Origin: an uncultured Clostridium sp.
GTDB taxonomy: Bacteria; Bacillota; Clostridia; TANB77; CAG-508
Direction: 5' to 3'
NCBI GenBank assembly: GCA_948438085.1
Contig: CAOJKP010000002.1
Span: 32,021-96,020 of the forward strand
Length of the DNA: 64,000 nt
Position 1 is the first letter of the stretch, and the number at the start of each line of letters is the position of its first letter. Positions 9,589-16,049 of this stretch are shown in pieces. Position numbers and translations under genes: made by a program. Below the pieces are notes generated by a model that was given only the letters and a program-made list of their open reading frames with translations, had not been told where the DNA came from and made no database searches.

Positions 9589-9669
9589 GAATTTTTTTAT
9601 TATCATGGTATAATACACAAAATATCAATGATAAGTTAAATATAAACTGTTACAACGGAAAGGAGAAAT

Positions 9670-10890
9670 ATGATAACAGGTAGCTTACAAAAAAAGAAAG
9701 GTCTTTATTATGCAGTTTTAAATTTATATGATGACTATGGAAAAAGAAAACCGAAATGGATTCCTACAGGTTATACTATAAAAGGAAACAAGAAAAAGGC
9801 TGAAGAAAAATTAGAACAATTTAAAATTGAGTATGAACAAAAATCTAAAATACAATTAAGAGATCCAAACATATATGATAAATATAAAAACATTTTATTT
9901 TGTGATTATATGTTGGAGTGGCTAGAAAAACAAAAAGGAAAAGTTGAACAAACAACCTATATAGGTTATGAGCAAGTAATTAAAGGTAGATTATACAAAT
10001 ACTTTAGAGCAAAGAAAATAAAATTAGTTGATTTGAAACCTAAACACATTCAAGACTTTTTTGATTTACTATTTGCATAGGGTCTATCTGGAAATACAGT
10101 AAAACATTATAGAGCAAATATTAGTAGAGCTTTAAAAAGTGCAGTTATCACAGAAATAATAGATAGCAACCCTGCTACTAAATTAGAAACAATTAAAACT
10201 AAAGAATATACAGCAGATTATTATACACAAGATGAGTTACTAAAACTAATGGAAATTATTAAAACTACACCTATTGAATTGCCAGTAATTATAGCTGGTA
10301 TATATGGCTTAAGGCGTGAAGAAGTTATTGGTATTAAATGGAATGCTATTGATTTCAAAGCAAAAACATTAACAATTAGACATACAGTAGGTCGTGGAAA
10401 AATTGATGGTGTTACACAATTCATTTTCAAAGATAGAGCAAAAAGTGATTCAGGTTATAGAACTTTACCTTTATTTGATTTCATTGCTGATTTATTAAAT
10501 ACCTATAAAGATAAGTATGAAGAATATAAAAAGTTTTATGGCAATACTTATTGCAATGATTATAAAGACTATATATGTTTAATGGAAAATGGAGAACTAA
10601 TGAAACCTGGATATGTAACACAAACTTTTAGTAAAGTATTAGATAGCAATAATTTACGACATATTAGGTTACACGATTTAAGGCATAGTTTTGTGGAACT
10701 TTATTAATTCAAAATGGTGTACCAGTTAAAGACATGCAAATATGGCTAGGTCATTCTAATTTTCAAACTACTTTAAGATATGCACATGCTGATATAGAAA
10801 ATAAAAGAATTTCTGCAAGTGTTATTAGTGATAAACTTGCATTAGATATAAAAGATACAAAAAAAGAACAAATTACCGAACTCGCTATTT
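9670..10890 (+). pseudogene. int: tyrosine integrase (Tn916-Int-like), inactivated
   Basis: N-terminal arm-binding region, core-binding region and catalytic HDLRHSF...LGHSNFQTTLRYAH. Carries an in-frame TAG at 10078-10080 and a -1 frameshift near 10693-10700. Neither defect is at a CGG. Confidence 0.8.
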
Positions 10891-11151: not shown

Positions 11152-11466
11152 TTAAATTTTATCCGTCCAATTAGAAGCACCATATAAAATTCTTTCAATA
11201 TTTACAATTTTATTGTTTTCACTTATTCTATAAAAGACAATGTAATTTTTTATAATTAACTTATATATCTTAGAATAATTTTTGACTTTAATATCTACAA
11301 CAGCAAACCTATGTGGGTTATATGCTAATTTTTCAATTTCTTCATTTATCAATATTGAATATTTATTAGCAATAGTAGGTTCTACTAAACTATATTTAAT
11401 GTATCTAATAATATCAAAATAGTCATTTCTAGCCTCTTTTGAAAATTTTATTTTGTAATTTTCCAT
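11152..11466 (-). CDS. RelE/ParE-family type II toxin
   Basis: MENYKIKFSKEARNDYFDIIRYI...NYIVFYRISENNKIVNIERILYG fits the ParE/RelE pattern. GGAG precedes the ATG at 11466. Confidence 0.65.
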   Translation of the reverse strand: MENYKIKFSKEARNDYFDIIRYIKYSLVEPTIANKYSILINEEIEKLAYNPHRFAVVDIKVKNYSKIYKLIIKNYIVFYRISENNKIVNIERILYGASNWTDKI

Positions 11467-11485
11467 AATTAAATTCTCCGATTTG

Positions 11486-11728
11486 CTATATTTTTTGTAC
11501 TTCTTCAAAGACTTCTTCAAGAGAATAAACTTCGCCTTTTTCTGTACTTTCAATTCCTGATTCTAATTTCTTTTTTAAATCTTCTTTATCTTTTATAATT
11601 AAGTTTTGTGGTGCATTATTTATAATAGAATTAAATTTTAAATATTCTATATAATCGAGAACTTGAATTGCAAGTTCTTCTGGTAAAGTTTCTATTGATT
11701 TTAATAATTCTTGTTTTTCTACTGACAT
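11486..11728 (-). CDS. cognate antitoxin
   Basis: 80-codon acidic protein directly upstream of the toxin in the same operon. Confidence 0.45.
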   Translation of the reverse strand: MSVEKQELLKSIETLPEELAIQVLDYIEYLKFNSIINNAPQNLIIKDKEDLKKKLESGIESTEKGEVYSLEEVFEEVQKI

Positions 11729-12039: not shown

Positions 12040-13002
12040 TTATTGGCTATTTTGCGACATTTCATTTGCACGATCAGCTAAGAAGTTAAAAAGAAATTCA
12101 TTTATTCGAACAGCTCTTGTACATGAACCGTTTTGAGCAGTGCCTTTGTATACTCCTACAAGAATATTTGAGCTACTATCTAAAATAGCACCACCACTAT
12201 ATCCGTAACCTCCAGTACAAGACATTTCTAATACAGTATCAGTTGCATTTAAAATGCAACCTCTTGAGCTATACATATAGTTATTACTTATTGAATCACC
12301 AGGATATCCAAGTAATGTCGCTTCTTTGCCAGGTACAGAGTCAATGTTTGTGTAATATCCATATAATTGAAATGTATCATAGCTACTTGATATATTACAA
12401 ACAGCCCAATCCTTATCACCATTAAGTGTAGGAAAATTAACATAACCTCTTGGAACAGAATACTGAAGTGTATAAGAAGAACCTAATGGATTATTACCTC
12501 CATTTCTTGCAGGTGATACTTCAACACTTGTAGCCCAACCACCACATTCAGAGTCATAAACTAAATGTGCAGCTGTTAATATAACATTAAAGTATACTAA
12601 CGTAGCACTGCCACCTTTTACAGAGGAGTCAGGAAAAGTTGCTGTTATATGACATATATTTCGGTAGGGTGAAGCTAATGTATCGGTAACTTTATTTACT
12701 GTTGGTTGAGGTCCTACAATAATATTTCCATTAGAAGAAGTGCTCTCTAATCCAATTATATCGGTTGAGCCATCTTCTGAATAGAAGTTTGTAGTCATAG
12801 AAGTGTAGTCAAAAGAGACTTCTTCAGTGGTTGTTTCTCCAGTAGCTACATCATATGTGATAACTGTATTATCAGAATCTGAGTTTACAGGAAAAGATGA
12901 ATCTGTTGCGTATACATTTACACTAACAGTTGCAATAATTATAGTAAGGGTTAATATAAATGATATAGTCCGTTTAATTGATGAAATAATAGTGCCTTTC
13001 AT
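12040..13002 (-). CDS. secreted trypsin-like (S1B/glutamyl-endopeptidase-like) serine protease
   Basis: Signal peptide. LTAAHLVY (His), DKDWAV (Asp), GYGYSGGAIL (Ser). Codon 11 is an in-frame CGG without a frame change. Confidence 0.65.
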   Translation of the reverse strand: MKGTIISSIKRTISFILTLTIIIATVSVNVYATDSSFPVNSDSDNTVITYDVATGETTTEEVSFDYTSMTTNFYSEDGSTDIIGLESTSSNGNIIVGPQPTVNKVTDTLASPYRNICHITATFPDSSVKGGSATLVYFNVILTAAHLVYDSECGGWATSVEVSPARNGGNNPLGSSYTLQYSVPRGYVNFPTLNGDKDWAVCNISSSYDTFQLYGYYTNIDSVPGKEATLLGYPGDSISNNYMYSSRGCILNATDTVLEMSCTGGYGYSGGAILDSSSNILVGVYKGTAQNGSCTRAVRINEFLFNFLADRANEMSQNSQ

Positions 13003-13186: not shown

Positions 13187-13564
13187 TTAATTATCTAAAA
13201 TTTCTATTTTTGTAACCCAATCTAAACTTGCGGGAAATGTTTCAATGATTGTGTTACCTCTTGATGTAATTACAATTTTTTGACCTACTTGTAAATCTTC
13301 AATATGAATTGTTTTATTATTATATATTAATTTTGTGTGTTTGTTTACAGAAAAACGATATAATCCAGAATCAGATTCTCTTTTGGCTAATATGTTAAAA
13401 TGTTTATCATATTGACTTATTTTTTCTATAGTAGCAGTCATTGTCCAAGGTTTTGAAGTAAAGTAAAAATTAATATATTTGATACCAAAATTTAGAAACA
13501 ATGTTGTACATATAAAAATAATTAATATAACTATAATGATTAGTAAAAATTTTTGAGATTTCAT
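13187..13564 (-). CDS. small membrane-anchored protein (DUF3221-like?)
   Basis: N-terminal TM helix and beta-rich C-terminus. The family guess rests on size and pattern only. Confidence 0.35.
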   Translation of the reverse strand: MKSQKFLLIIIVILIIFICTTLFLNFGIKYINFYFTSKPWTMTATIEKISQYDKHFNILAKRESDSGLYRFSVNKHTKLIYNNKTIHIEDLQVGQKIVITSRGNTIIETFPASLDWVTKIEILDN

Positions 13565-13853: not shown

Positions 13854-14234
13854 CTATGAATAATCAATTTCTAATTTTATAATACGACTAATTTCTTCTA
13901 TAAAGTTTTTATTTGTAAATAGATATTGGTCGTATTCAAAACAAAAAATTTTTTCAAAATTTCGTATAGTTTTTTCTTCGTTTCTATTATTAAGAGTATA
14001 AGAAATATCATTTTTTACTTGTTTTGGAGTTATATTATGATATATAGTTGCAATATGTTTATAAATATCTTCAAATTTAAACATATCAGTATTAGATATT
14101 AATAGCATCTGAATTGCTTTGTTAAGATATTTAGCACCTCTATGGCTTGTATTTAATCCTATATCACGTAAAATATTAAAAATAATTAAAACTTGTTTAG
14201 GATTAATTGTAATACTTTTATTAAATCCATTCAT
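13854..14234 (-). CDS. stand-alone Spo0A C-terminal-like DNA-binding domain protein
   Basis: LRDIGLNTSHRGAKYLNKAIQMLL...IYKHIATIYHNITPKQVKNDISYTL...FTNKNFIEEISRII is collinear with the Spo0A C-domain at the end of this window ([23 protein letters not shown]...[24 protein letters not shown]...[14 protein letters not shown]). GGGGGT lies 7 nt before the ATG at 14234. Confidence 0.55.
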   Translation of the reverse strand: MNGFNKSITINPKQVLIIFNILRDIGLNTSHRGAKYLNKAIQMLLISNTDMFKFEDIYKHIATIYHNITPKQVKNDISYTLNNRNEEKTIRNFEKIFCFEYDQYLFTNKNFIEEISRIIKLEIDYS

Positions 14235-14348
14235 AATTATTACCCCCAATACAGAAACTGTAGAAGTAAACATTAGTTGTTCTAATCAATAATAATTCCT
14301 TATTACAATATAAGTGTATCAAAATTATGTAAACATATCAAAAATATA

Positions 14349-14397
14349 AAATCTGCATATAGTGCAGTGAAATATGCACTATATGCAGATTTTTTTA
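14349..14397. terminator. bidirectional terminator hairpin
   Basis: Perfect 19-bp stem AAAATCTGCATATAGTGCA / TGCACTATATGCAGATTTT flanked by T/A runs. Confidence 0.65.
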
Positions 14398-14461
14398 TAA
14401 ATAATTGTATATTTTAATAGAATTTATTAGTAAAATATACTATTTTAGATAGATTTTTATA

Positions 14462-14564
14462 AAATAACACGGGAGAATACGCAAATTCCCGTGTTTTAGT
14501 GCTTTAAATCTTAACCTTTAAAGCTATAATTAATATAAACTATTACGACTAATCTATATTAATT
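14462..14564 (-). ncRNA. ~100-nt sRNA candidate carrying an anti-SD sequence in its terminator
   Basis: Minus-strand promoter TTGAAA (14594-14599) -17 nt- TATAAT (14571-14576). Terminator CACGGGA..TCCCGTG + TTATTTT (14468-14493). Carries two blocks complementary to the upstream transcript (16 nt and 9 nt). Confidence 0.45.
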
Positions 14565-14604
14565 AATTTAATTATAAACTAAAATAGCATTATTTTCAAG
14601 TAAA

Positions 14605-14912
14605 TTACAGAAAATAGGGGAGAAACTAATCTCCCCCAAAAGCCGAATGACTTTTTTCTGTCAGCAATCGATTACCCACCAGGACAACCGACCACCATCA
14701 CATAATAAGTGTTTCATTTGCGTATTCTCCCTTGTATAAATTCTTCAAGTAAAAATTCAATGATGTAATACGAGAGAATAAGCAATGCTTAATCTTGTAT
14801 AAAAAATCCAGGCAGTCGTAATGCCTGAATGTTATCACTGAACATCAAGCATTACGCTTGTGGAATGGATTGATTATTAAGATTTCAAAGCCATTCTTTT
14901 TACTATGAAGTT
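14605..14912 (-). other. ~300-nt structured, GC-richer transcript carrying an 18-codon ORF
   Basis: Runs from the promoter at 14919-14947 to the terminator GGGGAGA..TCTCCCC + TATTTTCTG (14617-14637). Has mutually exclusive hairpins around 14808-14856. Confidence 0.45.
14661..14717 (-). CDS. 18-codon small ORF (MKHLLCDGGRLSWWVIDC)
   Basis: AAGGGAGAA SD with its GGGAG core 9 nt upstream of the ATG at 14717. The SD and AUG lie inside the 16-nt block complementary to the downstream sRNA. Confidence 0.3.
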   Translation of the reverse strand: MKHLLCDGGRLSWWVIDC

Positions 14913-14918
14913 ATATTT

Positions 14919-14947
14919 ATTATAACATATTTTTATATAAAAATCAA
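14919..14947 (-). promoter_or_regulatory. strong minus-strand promoter
   Basis: TTGATT (14942-14947), 17 nt, TGT-TATAAT (14919-14927), read on the minus strand. Confidence 0.55.
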
Positions 14948-14987
14948 TATATGCAAGATGTATCAAGCATTTGAAAGGTTTTTACGG

Positions 14988-15016
14988 TTGAAAAATTAGG
15001 AAGAAAATGGTATAAT
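14988..15016 (+). promoter_or_regulatory. promoter of the XRE-type regulator gene
   Basis: TTGAAA (14988-14993), 17 nt, TGG-TATAAT (15011-15016). Confidence 0.55.
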
Positions 15017-15053
15017 TAATATTAGGAAGATTTATTAAAGGAAGTGATGTGAT

Positions 15054-15767
15054 ATGGCTGAATTTAATAGAAAAGATTTTGGAGAAAGATTAAGAAAATT
15101 TAGAAAAGAAAAAGGATTAAGTCAAGAAAATCTTGCAAATGCAATTAATAAAAATGCAACTACTATTGGTAGATTTGAAAGTGGTAAACTTATTCCAAAT
15201 GCAGAGGAAATATATTTATTATGCAATGAACTAGAAATTAATGAAAGTGAGCTTTTTAATACTTCCAATAAAATAAATAAAAAAGATAGTTTTAATCCTT
15301 TTGAAACTAATACATTATATATTTATTACAATGGATATTATCCTTCTAGCAAAAAATTTGATAAATGTAAATTTAAAATAAATATTAAAGAAAAAGAAGA
15401 TTATTATGCACTAGAACTTGTAGATTATAAAACTAATAGAATATATTTAAGTGGGCATATAGAAACAGATAATTATATGGCTTTTTTCAAATTAAACAAT
15501 TATAAACCTAATAGTCCGCGTTTGGAGTGTACACAAATAAATGTAAATATTGCAAATGGTATTGATAGATTAATGAAAGGAGCTTTGTTTTGTACTAATG
15601 GTAAATATGAACCAAGTAGTAGAAAATGCTTTATATCTAAAATTGATTTGGAATTTACAGATGAAATGTTTGAAGAATTAAAAATAACTAAACAAGAATT
15701 TAGAGAAATGGAGAAAATAAATATATGGTACTTAGATGTAAAGAATAAAGAAGATTTTGAAAACTAA
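15054..15767 (+). CDS. XRE-family HTH regulator with ~170-aa C-terminal domain of unknown function
   Basis: LSQENLANAINKNATTIGRFESGK is an HTH. The C-terminal region is beta-rich. Confidence 0.6.
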   Translation: MAEFNRKDFGERLRKFRKEKGLSQENLANAINKNATTIGRFESGKLIPNAEEIYLLCNELEINESELFNTSNKINKKDSFNPFETNTLYIYYNGYYPSSKKFDKCKFKINIKEKEDYYALELVDYKTNRIYLSGHIETDNYMAFFKLNNYKPNSPRLECTQINVNIANGIDRLMKGALFCTNGKYEPSSRKCFISKIDLEFTDEMFEELKITKQEFREMEKINIWYLDVKNKEDFEN

Positions 15768-16049
15768 TAAGAAGCATTGAATTATGAATAATTAATTCAG
15801 TGCTTTTTTATAACAAATTTTGAACGTATTTCAAATTTTATAATCTTAATAAGTACTGATATTGATACACTTTTGGCAGTTTGCTAAAAGTGTATTTTCA
15901 GCTTTTTTTGACTTTGTTGGATATTATAAGGTTTTTTATGTAATTTTTGGGCTTTTATACTTTACTTAAAATTACAATGCTATCATAAAGTTAAGCTTAA
16001 GCCAAAAAAGACTATTGATAGTCAAATATATTTAAGGAGATTTTAATTA

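What the first reader, a model, noticed from the sequence alone, without database searches (positions are those of the whole stretch)
14462..14947. GC-rich structured RNA locus on the IME: an 18-codon ORF whose SD/AUG is matched by a 16-nt perfect complement in a tandem sRNA
This 480-bp 'intergenic' stretch is much more GC-rich than its surroundings and is packed with signals on the minus strand. Promoter P1 (TTGATT-17-TGTTATAAT, 14919-14947) starts a transcript containing two mutually exclusive hairpins. One is CGTAATGC/GCATTACG, 14816-14856. The other is a terminator-like CAGGCA/TGCCTG + U6, 14802-14827. Next comes an anti-SD-like block (14772-14787), then AAGGGAGAA plus AUG and the ORF MKHLLCDGGRLSWWVIDC (14717-14661), and then terminator GGGGAGA/TCTCCCC. 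Immediately downstream, a second promoter P2 (TTGAAA-17-TATAAT, 14571-14599) would make a ~100-nt RNA. Its terminator hairpin contains ATTTGCGTATTCTCCC, a perfect 16-nt complement of the SD-to-AUG segment (DNA inverted repeat 14471-14486 / 14716-14731). A second 9-nt complement (14542-14550 / 14814-14822) targets the loop of the 5' terminator-like hairpin. This resembles a trans-antisense switch controlling translation and possibly attenuation. It lies between a divergent XRE regulator and a Spo0A-C-like gene. The peptide is not hydrophobic, so it may be a leader or signalling peptide rather than a toxin (it has a WW-containing C-terminus).
Basis: partly seen in the sequence, partly recalled or inferred. 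Interest (0 to 1): 0.7.

Follow-up and report, generated by a model that had tools for sequence, protein, structure and literature searches.

The report
Antisense-locked, frameshift-gated micro-peptide cassette
The regulatory core of a mobile element from gut Clostridia holds an undescribed pair of RNAs: a small RNA that base-pairs at two co-evolving sites with a folded messenger for a peptide of about 14 residues, and the conserved form of that peptide can apparently be made only if the ribosome slips one base forward at the rarest codon, CGG.

Summary

The ~500-nt locus is conserved, divergent from an XRE regulator, in about 110 related loci from gut Clostridia MAGs and metagenomes (85 distinct sequences). 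Both promoters are conserved.

Both sRNA:mRNA contacts covary:
- The sRNA 5' hairpin loop pairs with the loop of the leader terminator-like hairpin (97% paired, 7 of 9 pairs with double changes).
- The sRNA 3' hairpin pairs with the SD-AUG region (11 of 17 pairs with double changes).

Also supported by covariation are the antiterminator, the anti-SD:SD helix and a 5'-3' helix in the mRNA.

The 18-codon ORF as read is wrong in its second half. After codon 9 comes an invariant C that makes a rare CGG codon. Past it, the conserved frame is +1 (G-[C/S]-P-G-G, then stop). Nine sequences in five lineages lack the C and encode the same peptide in one frame. This is the signature of a programmed +1 frameshift.

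The RNA logic resembles par(pAD1) type I TA and P1 c4/ant immunity. The peptide's role (switch effector or toxin) is inferred, not shown. There are no expression data.

The parts
14988..15016 (+). Pxre, promoter of the divergent XRE regulator gene (TTGAAA-17-TGGTATAAT)
   Evidence: 11/12 matches with an extended -10. The -35 and TG-TATAAT are conserved in 27 aligned homologs, while the roughly 40 nt between the two -35 boxes are not.
14919..14947 (-). P1, promoter of the micro-ORF mRNA (TTGATT-17-TGTTATAAT); the transcript is inferred to start near 14912
   Evidence: In A2 the TTG of the -35 and most of TG-TATAAT are invariant or nearly invariant columns.
14887..14896 (-). 5' strand (GAATGGCTTT) of the long-range 5'-3' helix H1 of the mRNA
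   Evidence: Pairs with 14645-14654. 92% of cells are paired and 5 of 10 pairs change on both sides, e.g. GGTT/AACC, GAGTGG/CCACTC, GACT/AGTC.
14849..14856 (-). Antiterminator strand (CGTAATGC). It pairs with GCATTACG (14817-14824) and has the same sense as the sRNA kissing loop
   Evidence: 95% paired, 4 of 8 pairs with double changes, slid controls 18-47%. For the leader alone, the antiterminator form folds at -29.0 kcal/mol and the terminator form at -26.9.
14798..14829 (-). T1: leader hairpin TTCAGGCA-TTACGAC-TGCCTGGA plus a U-tract. Its 7-nt loop (within 14814-14822) is the kissing target of the sRNA
   Evidence: Terminator-like site. Stem 93% paired with 5 of 8 pairs double-changed. Loop-loop helix with the sRNA is 96.9% paired with 7 of 9 pairs double-changed, 0/500 shuffles. 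The U-tract is present in 51 of 68 sequences.
14770..14785 (-). Anti-SD block (TTGCTTATTCTCTCGT) that pairs in cis with the SD region
   Evidence: I22. The helix is 82% paired with 9 of 14 pairs double-changed.
14716..14735 (-). SD-to-AUG segment (ACAAGGGAGAATACGCAAAT), target of the sRNA 3' hairpin
   Evidence: 20-nt inverted repeat with 14467-14486 (I5). 80% paired in a structure-blind alignment, with 11 of 17 pairs double-changed. Window duplex energy is -29.4 kcal/mol.
14672..14717 (-). Recoded micro-ORF. Zero frame is 14717-14691 (MKHLLCDGG), the shift base C is at 14690 (rare codon CGG, 14690-14688), and the +1 frame is 14689-14672 (GCPGG, stop TAA). The predicted product is MKHLLCDGGGCPGG.
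   Evidence: 71 distinct sequences carry the C and 9 lack it and read in one frame. Synonymous share of codon differences downstream of C is 62% in frame +1, 2% in frame 0 and 8% in frame +2. The +1 stop falls exactly 5 codons on in 51 of 71.
14645..14654 (-). 3' strand (AAAGTCATTC) of helix H1
14615..14638 (-). T2, intrinsic terminator of the mRNA (TGGGGGAGA-TTAGTT-TCTCCCCTA plus Ts)
   Evidence: A G5/C5 stem is present in the homologs with double changes (helix 4).
14571..14599 (-). P2, promoter of the sRNA (TTGAAA-17-TATAAT)
   Evidence: 11/12 matches. TTG and TATAAT are nearly invariant columns in A2 while the spacer varies.
14457..14565 (-). sRNA, about 105 nt. It comprises 5' hairpin S1 (14527-14565) with kissing loop GTCGTAA (within 14542-14550), hairpin S2 (14501-14524), and terminator hairpin S3 (14466-14495) whose loop and 3' arm carry the anti-RBS block 14467-14486
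   Evidence: MFE -32.4 kcal/mol, z = -6.6. S1, S2 and S3 are 89-93% paired with double changes. Intermolecular covariation. Cognate versus non-cognate duplex energy is -28.1 against -16.3 kcal/mol.
14348..14393 (.). 19-bp perfect inverted repeat with a T-run. Each arm is a TGCA-N5-TGCA quasi-palindrome. It acts as terminator T4 and/or a double operator, and it separates the RNA cassette from the next gene
   Evidence: I3. Conserved with co-varying half-sites in 25 homologs.
14313..14341 (-). P3, conserved own promoter of the Spo0A_C-like gene (TTGATA-17-TG-n-TACACT)
   Evidence: Strongly conserved block TTTTTGAnTTGTTTACATAAnnTTGnTATAnT.
13854..14273 (-). Spo0A_C-like gene, the conserved downstream neighbour on the same strand
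   Evidence: PF08769, E = 4e-9. Syntenic in nearly all homologous loci.
15054..15767 (+). XRE-family regulator (237 aa) made of an N-terminal HTH and an 8-strand beta domain. It is the conserved divergent neighbour
   Evidence: Pfam HTH_3/HTH_19. 114 homologs. AF2 pLDDT 87, and PDB matches cover only the HTH.

Best explanation
This is the post-transcriptional core of the regulatory region of a family of integrative mobilizable elements in gut Clostridia. It consists of two tandem same-strand transcripts.

P1, back-to-back with the XRE repressor promoter, makes a ~300-nt mRNA whose only coding content is a micro-ORF. The mRNA locks itself in three ways:
- its extreme 5' end pairs with a 3' segment just before the terminator;
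- an anti-SD block pairs with the SD;
- the leader toggles between an antiterminator and a terminator-like hairpin.

P2 makes a ~105-nt sRNA. Its 5' hairpin loop kisses the 7-nt loop of the leader hairpin. That sequence is the one the antiterminator strand competes for, so binding favours the terminator form. Its 3' hairpin then pairs with about 20 nt spanning the SD and AUG, which blocks initiation.

Ribosomes that do initiate meet the rarest codon, CGG, after 7-10 codons. The conserved product (hydrophobic N-terminus, then D/G-G-G-[C/S]-P-G-G, 14-25 aa) arises only if they shift +1 there (GGN_C_GGN). This resembles the Ty3 / glass-sponge-mitochondria type of shift, with a slow A-site codon and no P-site re-pairing.

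I think the peptide is most likely the effector of the element's decision circuit, and the sRNA an immunity RNA of matched specificity, as with c4/ant in P1 and sar/ant in P22.

Status of each step:
- Shown by comparative sequence: both RNA-RNA contacts, the intramolecular helices, promoter conservation, and the switch of coding frame.
- Inferred: transcription itself, the frameshift mechanism, and any function of the peptide.
For: Conservation:
- The ~500-nt non-coding locus is found in 42 hits among 44 genome loci.
- It is found in 114 hits among 124 genome plus metagenome loci, giving 85 distinct sequences.
- P1 and P2 hexamers are invariant or nearly so.

Intermolecular covariation: 85% of cells paired against 37-52% for slid controls. 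19 of 28 pairs change on both sides, in 120 cells against 38.6 in shuffles (0/500).

Intramolecular helices: 87% paired, 40 of 74 pairs double-changed. Antiterminator: 95% paired.

Specificity:
- Cognate sRNA:RBS duplexes average -28.1 kcal/mol, non-cognate -16.3.
- The cognate sRNA is the best partner in 40 of 63 modules.
- Co-resident elements in one MAG are orthogonal (-29 to -32 cognate, -11 to -18 cross). An orphan sRNA in L072 matches another element's mRNA.
- Blocking the kissing target shifts the leader to the terminator hairpin.

Frame switch:
- With start codons picked by SD proximity alone, 71 distinct sequences have the G[C/S]PG motif at offset +1 preceded by C (70 by the automatic start choice plus L091, whose start I corrected by hand from GTG to the ATG 7 nt downstream). 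Nine have it at offset 0 without the extra C. There are no exceptions.
- Entropy peaks move from frame-0 third positions upstream of C to frame +1 third positions downstream.
- The synonymous share of codon differences downstream is 62% in frame +1 and 2% in frame 0. 47 distinct segments encode 8 different +1 pentapeptides but 29 different frame-0 pentapeptides.
- Frame 0 stops right after CGG in L072, L079 and L080. 15 of 71 have no start codon in the +1 frame.
- Long forms of both classes share GG-x-P-[IVLTY].
- In the variants L116 (TTA_C_GGT) and L135 (CCA_C_GGA), reading +1 at a CGG codon likewise restores a short Gly-rich reading (L116 YGGGSPGG; L135 GSGGC then stop), although the preceding codon differs.
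- CGG accounts for 5 of 11,361 codons in window ORFs. It is the rarest sense codon in 298 ORFs of related loci, at 32 of 64,835.

Precedent: +1 shifts at rare CGG_A/UGG_A next to GGA in glass-sponge mitochondria (PMC5009743).

Core position: the synteny Spo0A_C-like, sRNA, mRNA | XRE, DUF3846, xis, int is conserved. The cassette is insulated from the next gene, which has its own conserved promoter.
Against: - There are no expression data of any kind. Promoter-like sites are not enriched in this AT-rich DNA.
- All homologs were found through the XRE gene. Co-occurrence with XRE is therefore built in, and independence of context is untested.
- The shift site offers no P-site re-pairing and no recognisable stimulator. 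No bacterial precedent for a CGG-driven programmed +1 shift is known to me.
- The product was not observed.
- K2 is only 80% paired in the MAFFT alignment. The spacer is indel-rich, so some cells are misaligned.
- The T1 U-tract is missing in a quarter of sequences, so attenuation may be accessory.
- The peptide has no detectable similarity to any known effector.
- No XRE operator could be recognised between the divergent promoters.
- The choice of 'switch effector' over 'toxin' rests on position and synteny only.
Confidence: 0.55

Rival explanations
1. It is a type I toxin-antitoxin (addiction) module. The RNA mechanism is the same as above, but the micro-peptide is a toxin that kills or arrests cells that lose the element. 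The labile sRNA is the antitoxin. The frameshift merely keeps toxin output low.
For: - The RNA architecture matches par(pAD1) point by point (PMC7472228): loop-loop initiation; a second complementarity over the SD and start codon; an intramolecular stem-loop hiding the SD; and a helix sequestering the 5' end. Here these are.
- It sits on a mobile element.
- There are many stacked layers of repression.
- Specificity groups are diversified and an orphan antitoxin-like sRNA exists.
Against: - The peptide is 14-25 aa, Gly/Pro-rich, with mean hydropathy about 0 and no possible transmembrane helix. All well-studied type I toxins of Firmicutes are hydrophobic membrane peptides.
- The cassette holds a fixed position in the regulatory core across XRE identities of 45-100%. 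TA cargo usually comes and goes.
- The window element already carries a ParE/DUF2281 pair.
Confidence: 0.28
2. There is no recoding. Ribosomes read frame 0 through CGG. The nucleotide conservation after the C reflects an RNA-level or DNA-level motif, or relaxed decay of an ancestral in-frame gene. The sequences without the C are a side branch.
For: - The conserved block GGNCGGNNGYCCWGGWGG is G-rich and could be a binding motif.
- No slippery P-site codon or known stimulator is present.
- Positions +3 and +4 (A/T) are correlated, which a pure +1 coding model does not require.
Against: - The variable positions are exactly the third positions of the +1 frame, with all four CCN and GGN codons used.
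- 62% of codon differences are synonymous in +1 against 2% in frame 0.
- Frame-0 stops occur directly after CGG in three sequences, and frame-0 tails run from 1 to 78 codons.
- Single-frame orthologs in five lineages encode the same motif and the same GG-x-P-hydrophobic extension.
- Indels between AUG and the C are always multiples of three.
- A pseudogene would not keep purifying selection downstream across XRE identities of 45-100%.
- No covarying partner for the block was seen by eye in A2.
Confidence: 0.12
3. It is a cis-acting leader or attenuator of the downstream Spo0A_C-like gene. Translation of the micro-ORF and sRNA binding only set how many P1 transcripts read through T1, T2, T3 and T4 into that gene, and the peptide itself has no function.
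For: - Same strand and conserved synteny with the Spo0A_C-like gene.
- There are four terminator-like hairpins in series.
- The leader has an antiterminator/terminator alternative.
Against: - The Spo0A_C-like gene has its own strongly conserved extended -10 promoter directly after the last hairpin.
- T2, the sRNA terminator and the 19-bp hairpin are all strong.
- The sRNA has its own conserved promoter.
- The peptide sequence, not just its translation, is under purifying selection.
Confidence: 0.05

Closest known systems
par(pAD1) Fst/RNA II type I toxin-antitoxin system of Enterococcus faecalis (PMC7472228)
   Same: - An sRNA contacts a structured small-ORF mRNA first through complementary hairpin loops, then through a second block that covers the SD and start codon.
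- The mRNA hides its own SD in an intramolecular stem-loop.
- The mRNA sequesters its 5' end in a helix.
- It is carried by a mobile element.
   Different: - par RNAs are convergent and share a bidirectional terminator and direct repeats. Here both RNAs are on the same strand, in tandem, each with its own promoter and terminator, and complementarity comes from inverted repeats.
- Fst is a 33-aa hydrophobic membrane peptide with a PXXXG motif. This peptide is Gly/Pro-rich, non-hydrophobic and needs a frame change.
- There is no sequence or Rfam similarity.
c4 antisense RNA / icd-ant immunity (ImmI) of phages P1 and P7, and sar/ant of P22 (PMC12197685; Citron & Schuster 1990, from that review)
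   Same: - A small RNA encoded on the same strand as its target presents complementary sequences in loops.
- It blocks the ribosome binding site of a small first ORF of an anti-repressor-type transcript.
- Matched changes in RNA and target create heteroimmune specificity groups. Compare the orthogonal co-resident elements and the orphan sRNA here.
- It sits in the decision region of a mobile element.
   Different: - c4 is processed from the same operon upstream of its targets. Here the sRNA lies downstream with its own promoter.
- The targets in P1 and P22 lead to a sizeable antirepressor protein. Here the only product is a 14-25-aa peptide.
- The host is Gram-positive and the element is an IME, not a phage. 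No relatives were found in phage or viral collections.
Countertranscript-driven transcription attenuation (pT181 RNAI/II, pIP501 RNAIII, pAMbeta1; Anti-Q/prgQ of pCF10) - from my own knowledge
   Same: - The leader has mutually exclusive antiterminator and terminator hairpins.
- The sRNA pairs with the segment the antiterminator needs, which should favour termination.
- In pCF10 the regulated RNA also encodes a small peptide and lies next to an XRE-HTH regulator.
   Different: - Those countertranscripts are cis-antisense (opposite strand, fully complementary). Here there are only two short complementary blocks, supplied in trans.
- The U-tract is absent in about 25% of homologs.
- The XRE here has a beta-rich C-terminal domain rather than the helical peptide-binding domain of PrgX-like regulators. 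PDB fold matches, including those to PlcR and ComR, cover only its HTH.
Programmed +1 ribosomal frameshifting at slow-to-decode sense codons: Ty3 (GCG_AGU_U), Ty1 (CUU_AGG_C), glass-sponge mitochondrial genes (rare CGG_A / UGG_A next to GGA), bacterial prfB (PMC5009743)
   Same: - The zero-frame A-site codon is the rarest codon of the genome.
- The +1 codon is an abundant Gly codon.
- The inserted base is C, 5' of GGN, exactly as in the sponge cases.
- There is no P-site re-pairing, as in Ty3.
- In-frame orthologs exist, as for prfB.
   Different: - The context is bacterial.
- The ORF is only about 14 codons long, and the shifted part is usually 5 codons.
- No stop codon is involved, unlike prfB.
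- No stimulatory element was identified.
- There is no experimental evidence.

Membership tests
Type I toxin-antitoxin system | Antitoxin is an sRNA that base-pairs with the toxin mRNA and blocks its translation and/or triggers its decay | tested here: met
   Two complementary blocks are kept by compensatory changes. Cognate duplexes average -28.1 kcal/mol and non-cognate -16.3. The pairing covers the SD and AUG. Repression itself was not measured.
Type I toxin-antitoxin system | Toxin mRNA is folded into a translationally inert form (SD sequestration, 5'-3' or 5' helix) | tested here: met
   The anti-SD:SD helix and the 5'-3' helix H1 are both supported by covariation.
Type I toxin-antitoxin system | Small hydrophobic, membrane-active toxin peptide | tested here: not met
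   Predicted products are 14-25 aa, Gly/Pro-rich, with mean Kyte-Doolittle about 0. No stretch is long enough for a transmembrane helix.
Type I toxin-antitoxin system | Product is toxic when the antitoxin is lost | not testable with these tools
   This needs expression of the in-frame peptide in a host.
Countertranscript-driven transcription attenuation | Mutually exclusive antiterminator and terminator in the leader, with the antisense RNA binding the segment used by the antiterminator | tested here: met
   Antiterminator 95% paired with double changes. Terminator stem 93% paired. The kissing target overlaps the antiterminator 3' strand. Blocking it gives the terminator fold.
Countertranscript-driven transcription attenuation | Functional intrinsic terminator (U-tract) after the hairpin | tested here: inconclusive
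   At least 5 T in the next 8 nt in 51 of 68 sequences. The U-tract is absent in several lineages.
Countertranscript-driven transcription attenuation | Regulator RNA is transcribed from the opposite strand of its target (cis-antisense) | tested here: not met
   Both RNAs are on the minus strand, in tandem, with separate conserved promoters.
Programmed +1 ribosomal frameshift | Purifying selection on the zero frame upstream and on the +1 frame downstream of one defined site | tested here: met
   Entropy periodicity and synonymous fractions switch frame at the invariant C. 71 distinct sequences show this (one, L091, after a hand-corrected start codon).
Programmed +1 ribosomal frameshift | Slow-to-decode zero-frame A-site codon (rare sense or stop codon) | tested here: met
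   CGG is invariant at the site. It is the rarest sense codon, at 0.44-0.49 per 1000 codons and 1.3-1.4% of Arg codons. The tRNA-Arg(CCG) content of the hosts could not be checked.
Programmed +1 ribosomal frameshift | P-site codon allowing re-pairing in the +1 frame (Ty1/prfB type) | tested here: not met
   The P-site codon is GGA, GGT or GGG, or TTA or CCA in variants, followed by C. No +1 re-pairing is possible. This fits only the Ty3 / sponge-mitochondria type.
Programmed +1 ribosomal frameshift | Orthologs that encode the same product in a single frame | tested here: met
   Nine distinct sequences in five lineages (L073; L065/L067/L118; L069/L120/L139/L127; L146; L130).
Programmed +1 ribosomal frameshift | Trans-frame protein product observed | not testable with these tools
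   This needs a reporter assay or mass spectrometry.
RRNPP/Rgg-type regulator plus signalling-peptide cassette | Regulator with an HTH plus a helical (TPR-like) peptide-binding domain | tested here: not met
   The AF2 model (pLDDT 87) has an 8-strand beta domain. Foldseek matches to PlcR and ComR cover only the HTH.
Any Rfam family | Covariance-model match | tested here: not met
   No match inside 14455-14950 even at E <= 10. At gathering threshold the window holds only two tRNAs.

The most novel reading that the evidence does not exclude
The element uses the host's rarest codon as a sensor. The share of ribosomes that shift +1 at CGG, rather than decoding it, depends on tRNA-Arg(CCG) supply or the general elongation state. 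That share sets how much of a conserved 14-25-aa peptide is made once the sequence-matched immunity sRNA is titrated. The peptide then flips the element's XRE / Spo0A_C-like circuit towards excision or mobilization, or arrests the cell. If so, this would be the first programmed, sense-codon-driven +1 frameshift used for regulation in bacteria. It would sit in a micro-ORF, coupled to a two-site antisense RNA that defines heteroimmunity groups among co-resident mobile elements.
Probability: 0.25. Interest if true: 0.9.

Novelty: new variant of a known kind. Interest (0 to 1): 0.8.

Why it matters
- It defines an undescribed, widespread RNA family. It has no Rfam match, and four literature searches turned up no description of it. 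It occurs in mobile elements of uncultured gut Clostridia from human, mouse, deer and rabbit samples.
- Comparative sequence resolves a complete regulatory logic: two conserved promoters, a two-site antisense interaction with three-way covariation, and a self-locking mRNA.
- It offers a natural set of orthogonal sRNA/target pairs.
- Its micro-ORF may be a rare bacterial case of programmed +1 frameshifting at a hungry sense codon. In-frame natural controls exist, so the question of how such shifts work without P-site slippage becomes directly testable in a 14-codon system.
- It shows that ORF callers and a naive reading both miss the real product.

Tried and rejected
- Rfam, at gathering threshold and at E <= 10: nothing in the locus. 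The weak miRNA and Streptococcus sRNA hits nearby are just hairpins or terminators.
- BLASTN of the locus against phage and plasmid collections: no match.
- Exact 16-mer scan of viral contigs: 22 hits. None shares the locus, so they are chance.
- XRE profile scan of viral contigs: only unrelated HTH domains. The element is not phage-borne.
- Identical-protein look-up: 10 contigs that are clonal copies, useless for covariation, but they revealed a 30-nt indel.
- The 15-bp G.U-rich hairpin inside the window ORF: considered as an RNA element and rejected because it is not conserved.
- Small hairpins within GGACGGAUGCCCAGG: examined by eye in A2; I saw no covariation.
- Independent initiation of the +1 ORF: rejected. 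15 of 71 have no start codon in that frame, none has an SD, and GTG is replaced by GCG in several.
- Ribosome hop from GGN to GGN: not required. On my reading of the shift-site sequences, the take-off and landing third bases are uncorrelated; L116 and L135 have non-Gly P-site codons.
- Double-glycine leader, AgrD, SHP/XIP and RiPP readings of the peptide: considered from memory. Lengths and motifs do not fit, and they were not pursued.
- Search for an XRE operator between Pxre and P1: no conserved palindrome. The window's ATTAGGAAGA repeats are not conserved.
- Fold search of XRE: only the HTH matches.
- Other targets of the anti-RBS block in the window: none.
- Other copies of the module in the window: none.
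- Literature searches for a prior description: none found.
Full report
**1. What is in the window**

- P1 lies at 14947..14919 (TTGATT-17-TGTTATAAT).
- A terminator-like hairpin lies at 14830..14806, followed by T6.
- An anti-SD block lies at 14774-14785.
- A strong SD plus ATG starts an 18-codon ORF at 14717-14661.
- A G5/C5 terminator lies at 14638..14615.
- P2 lies at 14599..14571 (TTGAAA-17-TATAAT).
- A terminator hairpin follows whose loop and 3' arm are complementary to the SD-AUG segment.

The 16-nt complement extends to 20 nt at 95%. That 16-mer occurs nowhere else in the 64 kb. The 9-nt second complement is exact.

GC rises to 0.30-0.36 against about 0.2 in the flanks. Terminator-like sites are enriched (6 against 0.3 expected), while promoter-like sites are not. 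The two putative RNAs fold much better than shuffles, with z of -5.7 and -6.6.

Context:
- A divergent XRE regulator lies at 15054-15767.
- It is followed on the plus strand by a DUF3846 protein, a Xis-like ORF, a tyrosine integrase and a Mob_Pre relaxase.
- A Spo0A_C-like gene lies downstream of the locus on the minus strand.

**2. Relatives**

Rfam gave nothing. Phage and plasmid BLAST gave nothing. Viral contigs gave only chance or HTH-only hits.

The identical XRE protein occurs on at least 22 metagenome contigs. The 10 retrieved are clonal. The 9 that span the whole locus differ from the window only by a 30-nt indel just after the sRNA terminator, and the tenth (L032) starts inside the locus and is identical over its overlap.

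The XRE family has 114 members at 43-100% identity. A profile of these found 44 loci in species-representative genomes, all uncultured gut Clostridia/Bacillota MAGs, and 80 more in metagenomes. A single-sequence nhmmer search found the ~500-nt non-coding region upstream of XRE in 42 hits among the 44 genome loci. A profile search of all 124 genome and metagenome loci gave 114 hits, 85 of them distinct sequences.

Synteny is conserved in the order Spo0A_C-like, sRNA, mRNA | XRE, (orf55), DUF3846, xis, int.

**3. The RNA-RNA interactions are real**

In a structure-blind MAFFT alignment of 36 distinct sequences (A2), the -35 and -10 hexamers of P1 and P2 are invariant or nearly invariant. The spacers vary.

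I wrote the window's pairings as brackets and counted them on A2. Intermolecular contacts:
- Loop-loop contact, leader hairpin loop with sRNA 5' hairpin loop: 96.9% paired, with 7 of 9 pairs changed on both sides.
- SD-AUG with sRNA 3' hairpin: 80% paired, with 11 of 17 pairs changed on both sides.
- Overall: 120 doubly changed cells against 38.6 in shuffles (0/500), and 85% paired against 37-52% when the partner is slid by 1-3 columns.

Intramolecular helices also covary:
- 5'-3' helix H1: 92% paired.
- Leader hairpin T1: 93% paired.
- Anti-SD:SD: 82% paired.
- T2 and the three sRNA hairpins also covary. Across all these helices, 40 of 74 pairs are doubly changed.
- Antiterminator CGUAAUGC/GCAUUACG: 95% paired, with 4 of 8 pairs doubly changed.

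Three segments change together: the antiterminator 5' strand, the leader hairpin loop and the sRNA loop. Examples are CGUAAU / AUUACG / UCGUAAU in the window, CUCAAU / AUUGAG / UCUCAAU in L053, and UUGCAAU and CUGCAAU types elsewhere.

Predicted duplex energies between a 30-nt RBS window and each sRNA average -28.1 kcal/mol for cognate pairs and -16.3 for non-cognate pairs. The cognate sRNA ranks first in 40 of 63 modules and in the top five in 55.

**4. How the RNA part most likely works (inferred from the anatomy)**

The leader can adopt an antiterminator form (-29.0 kcal/mol) or the T1 hairpin form (-26.9). If the kissing target is occupied, the T1 form wins. The sRNA loop has the same sense as the antiterminator strand, so it competes for the same partner.

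In the three quarters of sequences with a U-tract (51 of 68), this should give sRNA-driven attenuation. In all sequences the two complementary 7-nt loops provide a kissing contact.

The second contact unfolds the sRNA terminator hairpin and the anti-SD:SD helix, and it covers the SD and AUG. Cofolding gains about 10 kcal/mol.

This matches the par(pAD1) logic of loop-initiated, two-site pairing on an mRNA that hides its SD and its 5' end (PMC7472228). It also matches the same-strand c4 RNA of P1/P7, whose loops block an RBS and define heteroimmunity (PMC12197685).

Consistent with specificity groups:
- Paralogous elements in one MAG are mutually orthogonal. In CABUJR01, cognate pairs score -29 to -32 kcal/mol and cross pairs -11 to -18.
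- L072 carries an extra orphan sRNA gene. Its loop and anti-RBS block fit the L035-type mRNA (-30.1) better than its own element's mRNA (-22.4).

**5. The ORF is not what it seems**

The zero-frame peptide is conserved only up to ...[F/C/Y]-x-[D/G]-G-(G)-R. After that its length ranges from 10 to 55 residues in A2.

In the larger set, 71 distinct sequences have the pattern AUG-(7-10 codons)-GGN-C-GGN-[U/A]G[C/U]-CCN-GGN-GGN/GCN/UGY. The C is invariant.

Nine distinct sequences from five lineages lack the C. They read ...DGG[S/C]PGG... or close variants in a single frame.

With start codons chosen only by SD proximity, the G[C/S]PG motif is at offset +1 in every sequence that has the C (70 by the automatic choice; L091 joins them once its start is moved by hand from GTG to the ATG 7 nt downstream). 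It is at offset 0 in every sequence that lacks it.

Further points:
- Column entropy peaks at zero-frame third positions upstream of the C, and at +1-frame third positions downstream of it.
- Among pairwise codon differences in the five codons after the C, 62% are synonymous in frame +1, 2% in frame 0 and 8% in frame +2. Upstream, frame 0 leads with 33% against 3% and 14%.
- 47 distinct segments encode 8 different +1 pentapeptides but 29 different zero-frame ones.
- The +1 frame stops after exactly five codons in 51 of 71 sequences. Zero-frame tails run from 1 to 78 codons, and three sequences have UAG directly after CGG.
- Fifteen sequences have no possible start codon in the +1 frame.
- Long forms of both classes share GG-x-P-[I/V/L/T/Y].
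- In L116 (UUA_C_GGU) and L135 (CCA_C_GGA), reading +1 at a CGG codon restores a short Gly-rich reading (L116 YGGGSPGG; L135 GSGGC then stop), although the preceding codon differs.

CGG is the rarest or second-rarest codon. It accounts for 5 of 11,361 codons in window ORFs and 32 of 64,835 codons in 298 ORFs of related loci, which is 1.3% of Arg codons.

The simplest reading is a programmed +1 frameshift at a hungry CGG codon, without P-site re-pairing. This is the type proposed for Ty3 and for glass-sponge mitochondrial genes, where a C or U is inserted 5' of GGA to create rare CGG_A or UGG_A (PMC5009743).

For the window the predicted product is MKHLLCDGG-GCPGG (14 aa), not the 18-mer with WW. 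A 4-nt hop (GGN to GGN) or a -2 shift cannot be excluded. Only protein data can tell.

**6. What the cassette is for**

The cassette is insulated from the Spo0A_C-like gene. After the sRNA terminator come three features:
- a conserved palindrome, which the window has lost with the 30-nt deletion;
- a 19-bp inverted repeat made of two TGCA-N5-TGCA sites (14348-14393);
- a strongly conserved extended -10 promoter, P3.

So the only product of P1 is the micro-peptide.

Its fixed place back-to-back with the XRE promoter, across XRE identities of 45-100%, argues for a core regulatory role. On this reading the peptide is the effector of the element's decision circuit and the sRNA is an immunity RNA. 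I put the whole scheme at about 0.55.

The RNA architecture and the many stacked locks fit a type I toxin-antitoxin module equally well (0.28), but the peptide is not hydrophobic.

The XRE protein has an HTH plus an 8-stranded beta domain with no solved relative. It could be the peptide's partner, but nothing tests that.

A pure cis-leader role is unlikely (0.05). 'No recoding' is hard to reconcile with section 5 (0.12).

**7. Limits**

- Everything is comparative or predictive. No RNA or peptide has been observed.
- Homologs were collected through XRE, so occurrence outside this element family is unknown.
- Shuffle controls ignore phylogeny. The slid controls and the number of independent pair types are the stronger evidence.
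- The hosts' tRNA-Arg(CCG) status could not be examined.

**8. Verdict**

The locus is a new, well-supported RNA-RNA regulatory family. It works like known antisense locks (par, c4/ant, countertranscript attenuation) but belongs to none of them. It carries a candidate bacterial sense-codon +1 frameshift.

Novelty: a new variant of a known kind, with a component that could be new for bacteria. Interest: 0.8.

Noticed in passing
window 14464/14465 (minus-strand position just 3' of the sRNA terminator); L023-L031: The window lacks a 30-nt segment (TTTTTATTAAAATATGCACTATGTGCATTA) that 9 otherwise identical metagenome copies carry. The segment holds a palindrome, ATGCACTATGTGCAT. A related TGCAC-N3-GTGCA motif is conserved at this place in most homologs and is a possible operator.
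   Followed up: partly
window 14348-14393 and 14313-14341: There is a 19-bp perfect inverted repeat whose arms are each a TGCA-N5-TGCA quasi-palindrome. It is conserved with co-varying half-sites in 25 homologs. A conserved extended -10 promoter for the Spo0A_C-like gene follows it immediately. It could be a double operator, a terminator, or both. The binding protein (XRE or the Spo0A_C-like protein) is unknown.
   Followed up: partly
L072:869-1047 (minus strand): A second, orphan copy of P2 plus the sRNA lies about 1.4 kb beyond the main cassette, downstream of the Spo0A_C-like gene. Its kissing loop (TCGTAAT) and anti-RBS block match the L035-type mRNA (-30.1 kcal/mol) rather than its own element's mRNA (-22.4). 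It resembles a heteroimmunity determinant.
   Followed up: partly
L054/L059/L066 (CABUJR01), L049+L069 (MNRP01000037, 10 kb apart), L034/L056, L041/L065, L036/L057: Single MAGs carry two or three paralogous elements of this family. Where tested, their sRNA/RBS pairs are mostly orthogonal (cognate -21 to -32, cross -9 to -18 kcal/mol; clearest in CABUJR01 and L041/L065). The exceptions are L049's mRNA with L069's sRNA (-25.2 against -26.1 cognate) and L034's mRNA with L056's sRNA (-26.7 against -30.1).
   Followed up: partly
window 15054-15767: The XRE regulator has a confidently modelled 8-strand beta C-terminal domain (pLDDT about 90) with several invariant Cys and Tyr residues. Beyond the HTH it has no fold match in the PDB. 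It may be an uncharacterised sensor domain.
   Followed up: partly
window 11152-11728, 12040-13002, 13187-13564: The cargo on the minus strand comprises a ParE toxin with a DUF2281-like antitoxin, a 320-aa trypsin-like protein with an N-terminal hydrophobic segment, and a 125-aa membrane protein. Some clonal copies carry a 281-aa variant of the protease gene.
   Followed up: no
window ~9600-10707 and 20646-21830: Additional tyrosine-integrase genes flank the element. On the left is a short (152-aa) ORF with only a partial integrase match, whose counterpart is called as two adjacent ORFs (202 + 142 aa) in L024. On the right is a 394-aa integrase on the opposite strand. This suggests tandem accretion of elements, or insertion into another element.
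   Followed up: no
window 15746-15906: Two sub-threshold Rfam hits (Spd-sr07 and SpF01 Streptococcus sRNAs, 29-34 bits against a gathering score of 55) lie just after the XRE stop codon. They look like terminator hairpins between XRE and the next ORF.
   Followed up: no
window 14992-15004 and 15018-15030: Direct repeats AA(A/T)ATTAGGAAGA lie within and just downstream of Pxre in the window. They are not conserved in homologs, so they are probably not an operator.
   Followed up: yes
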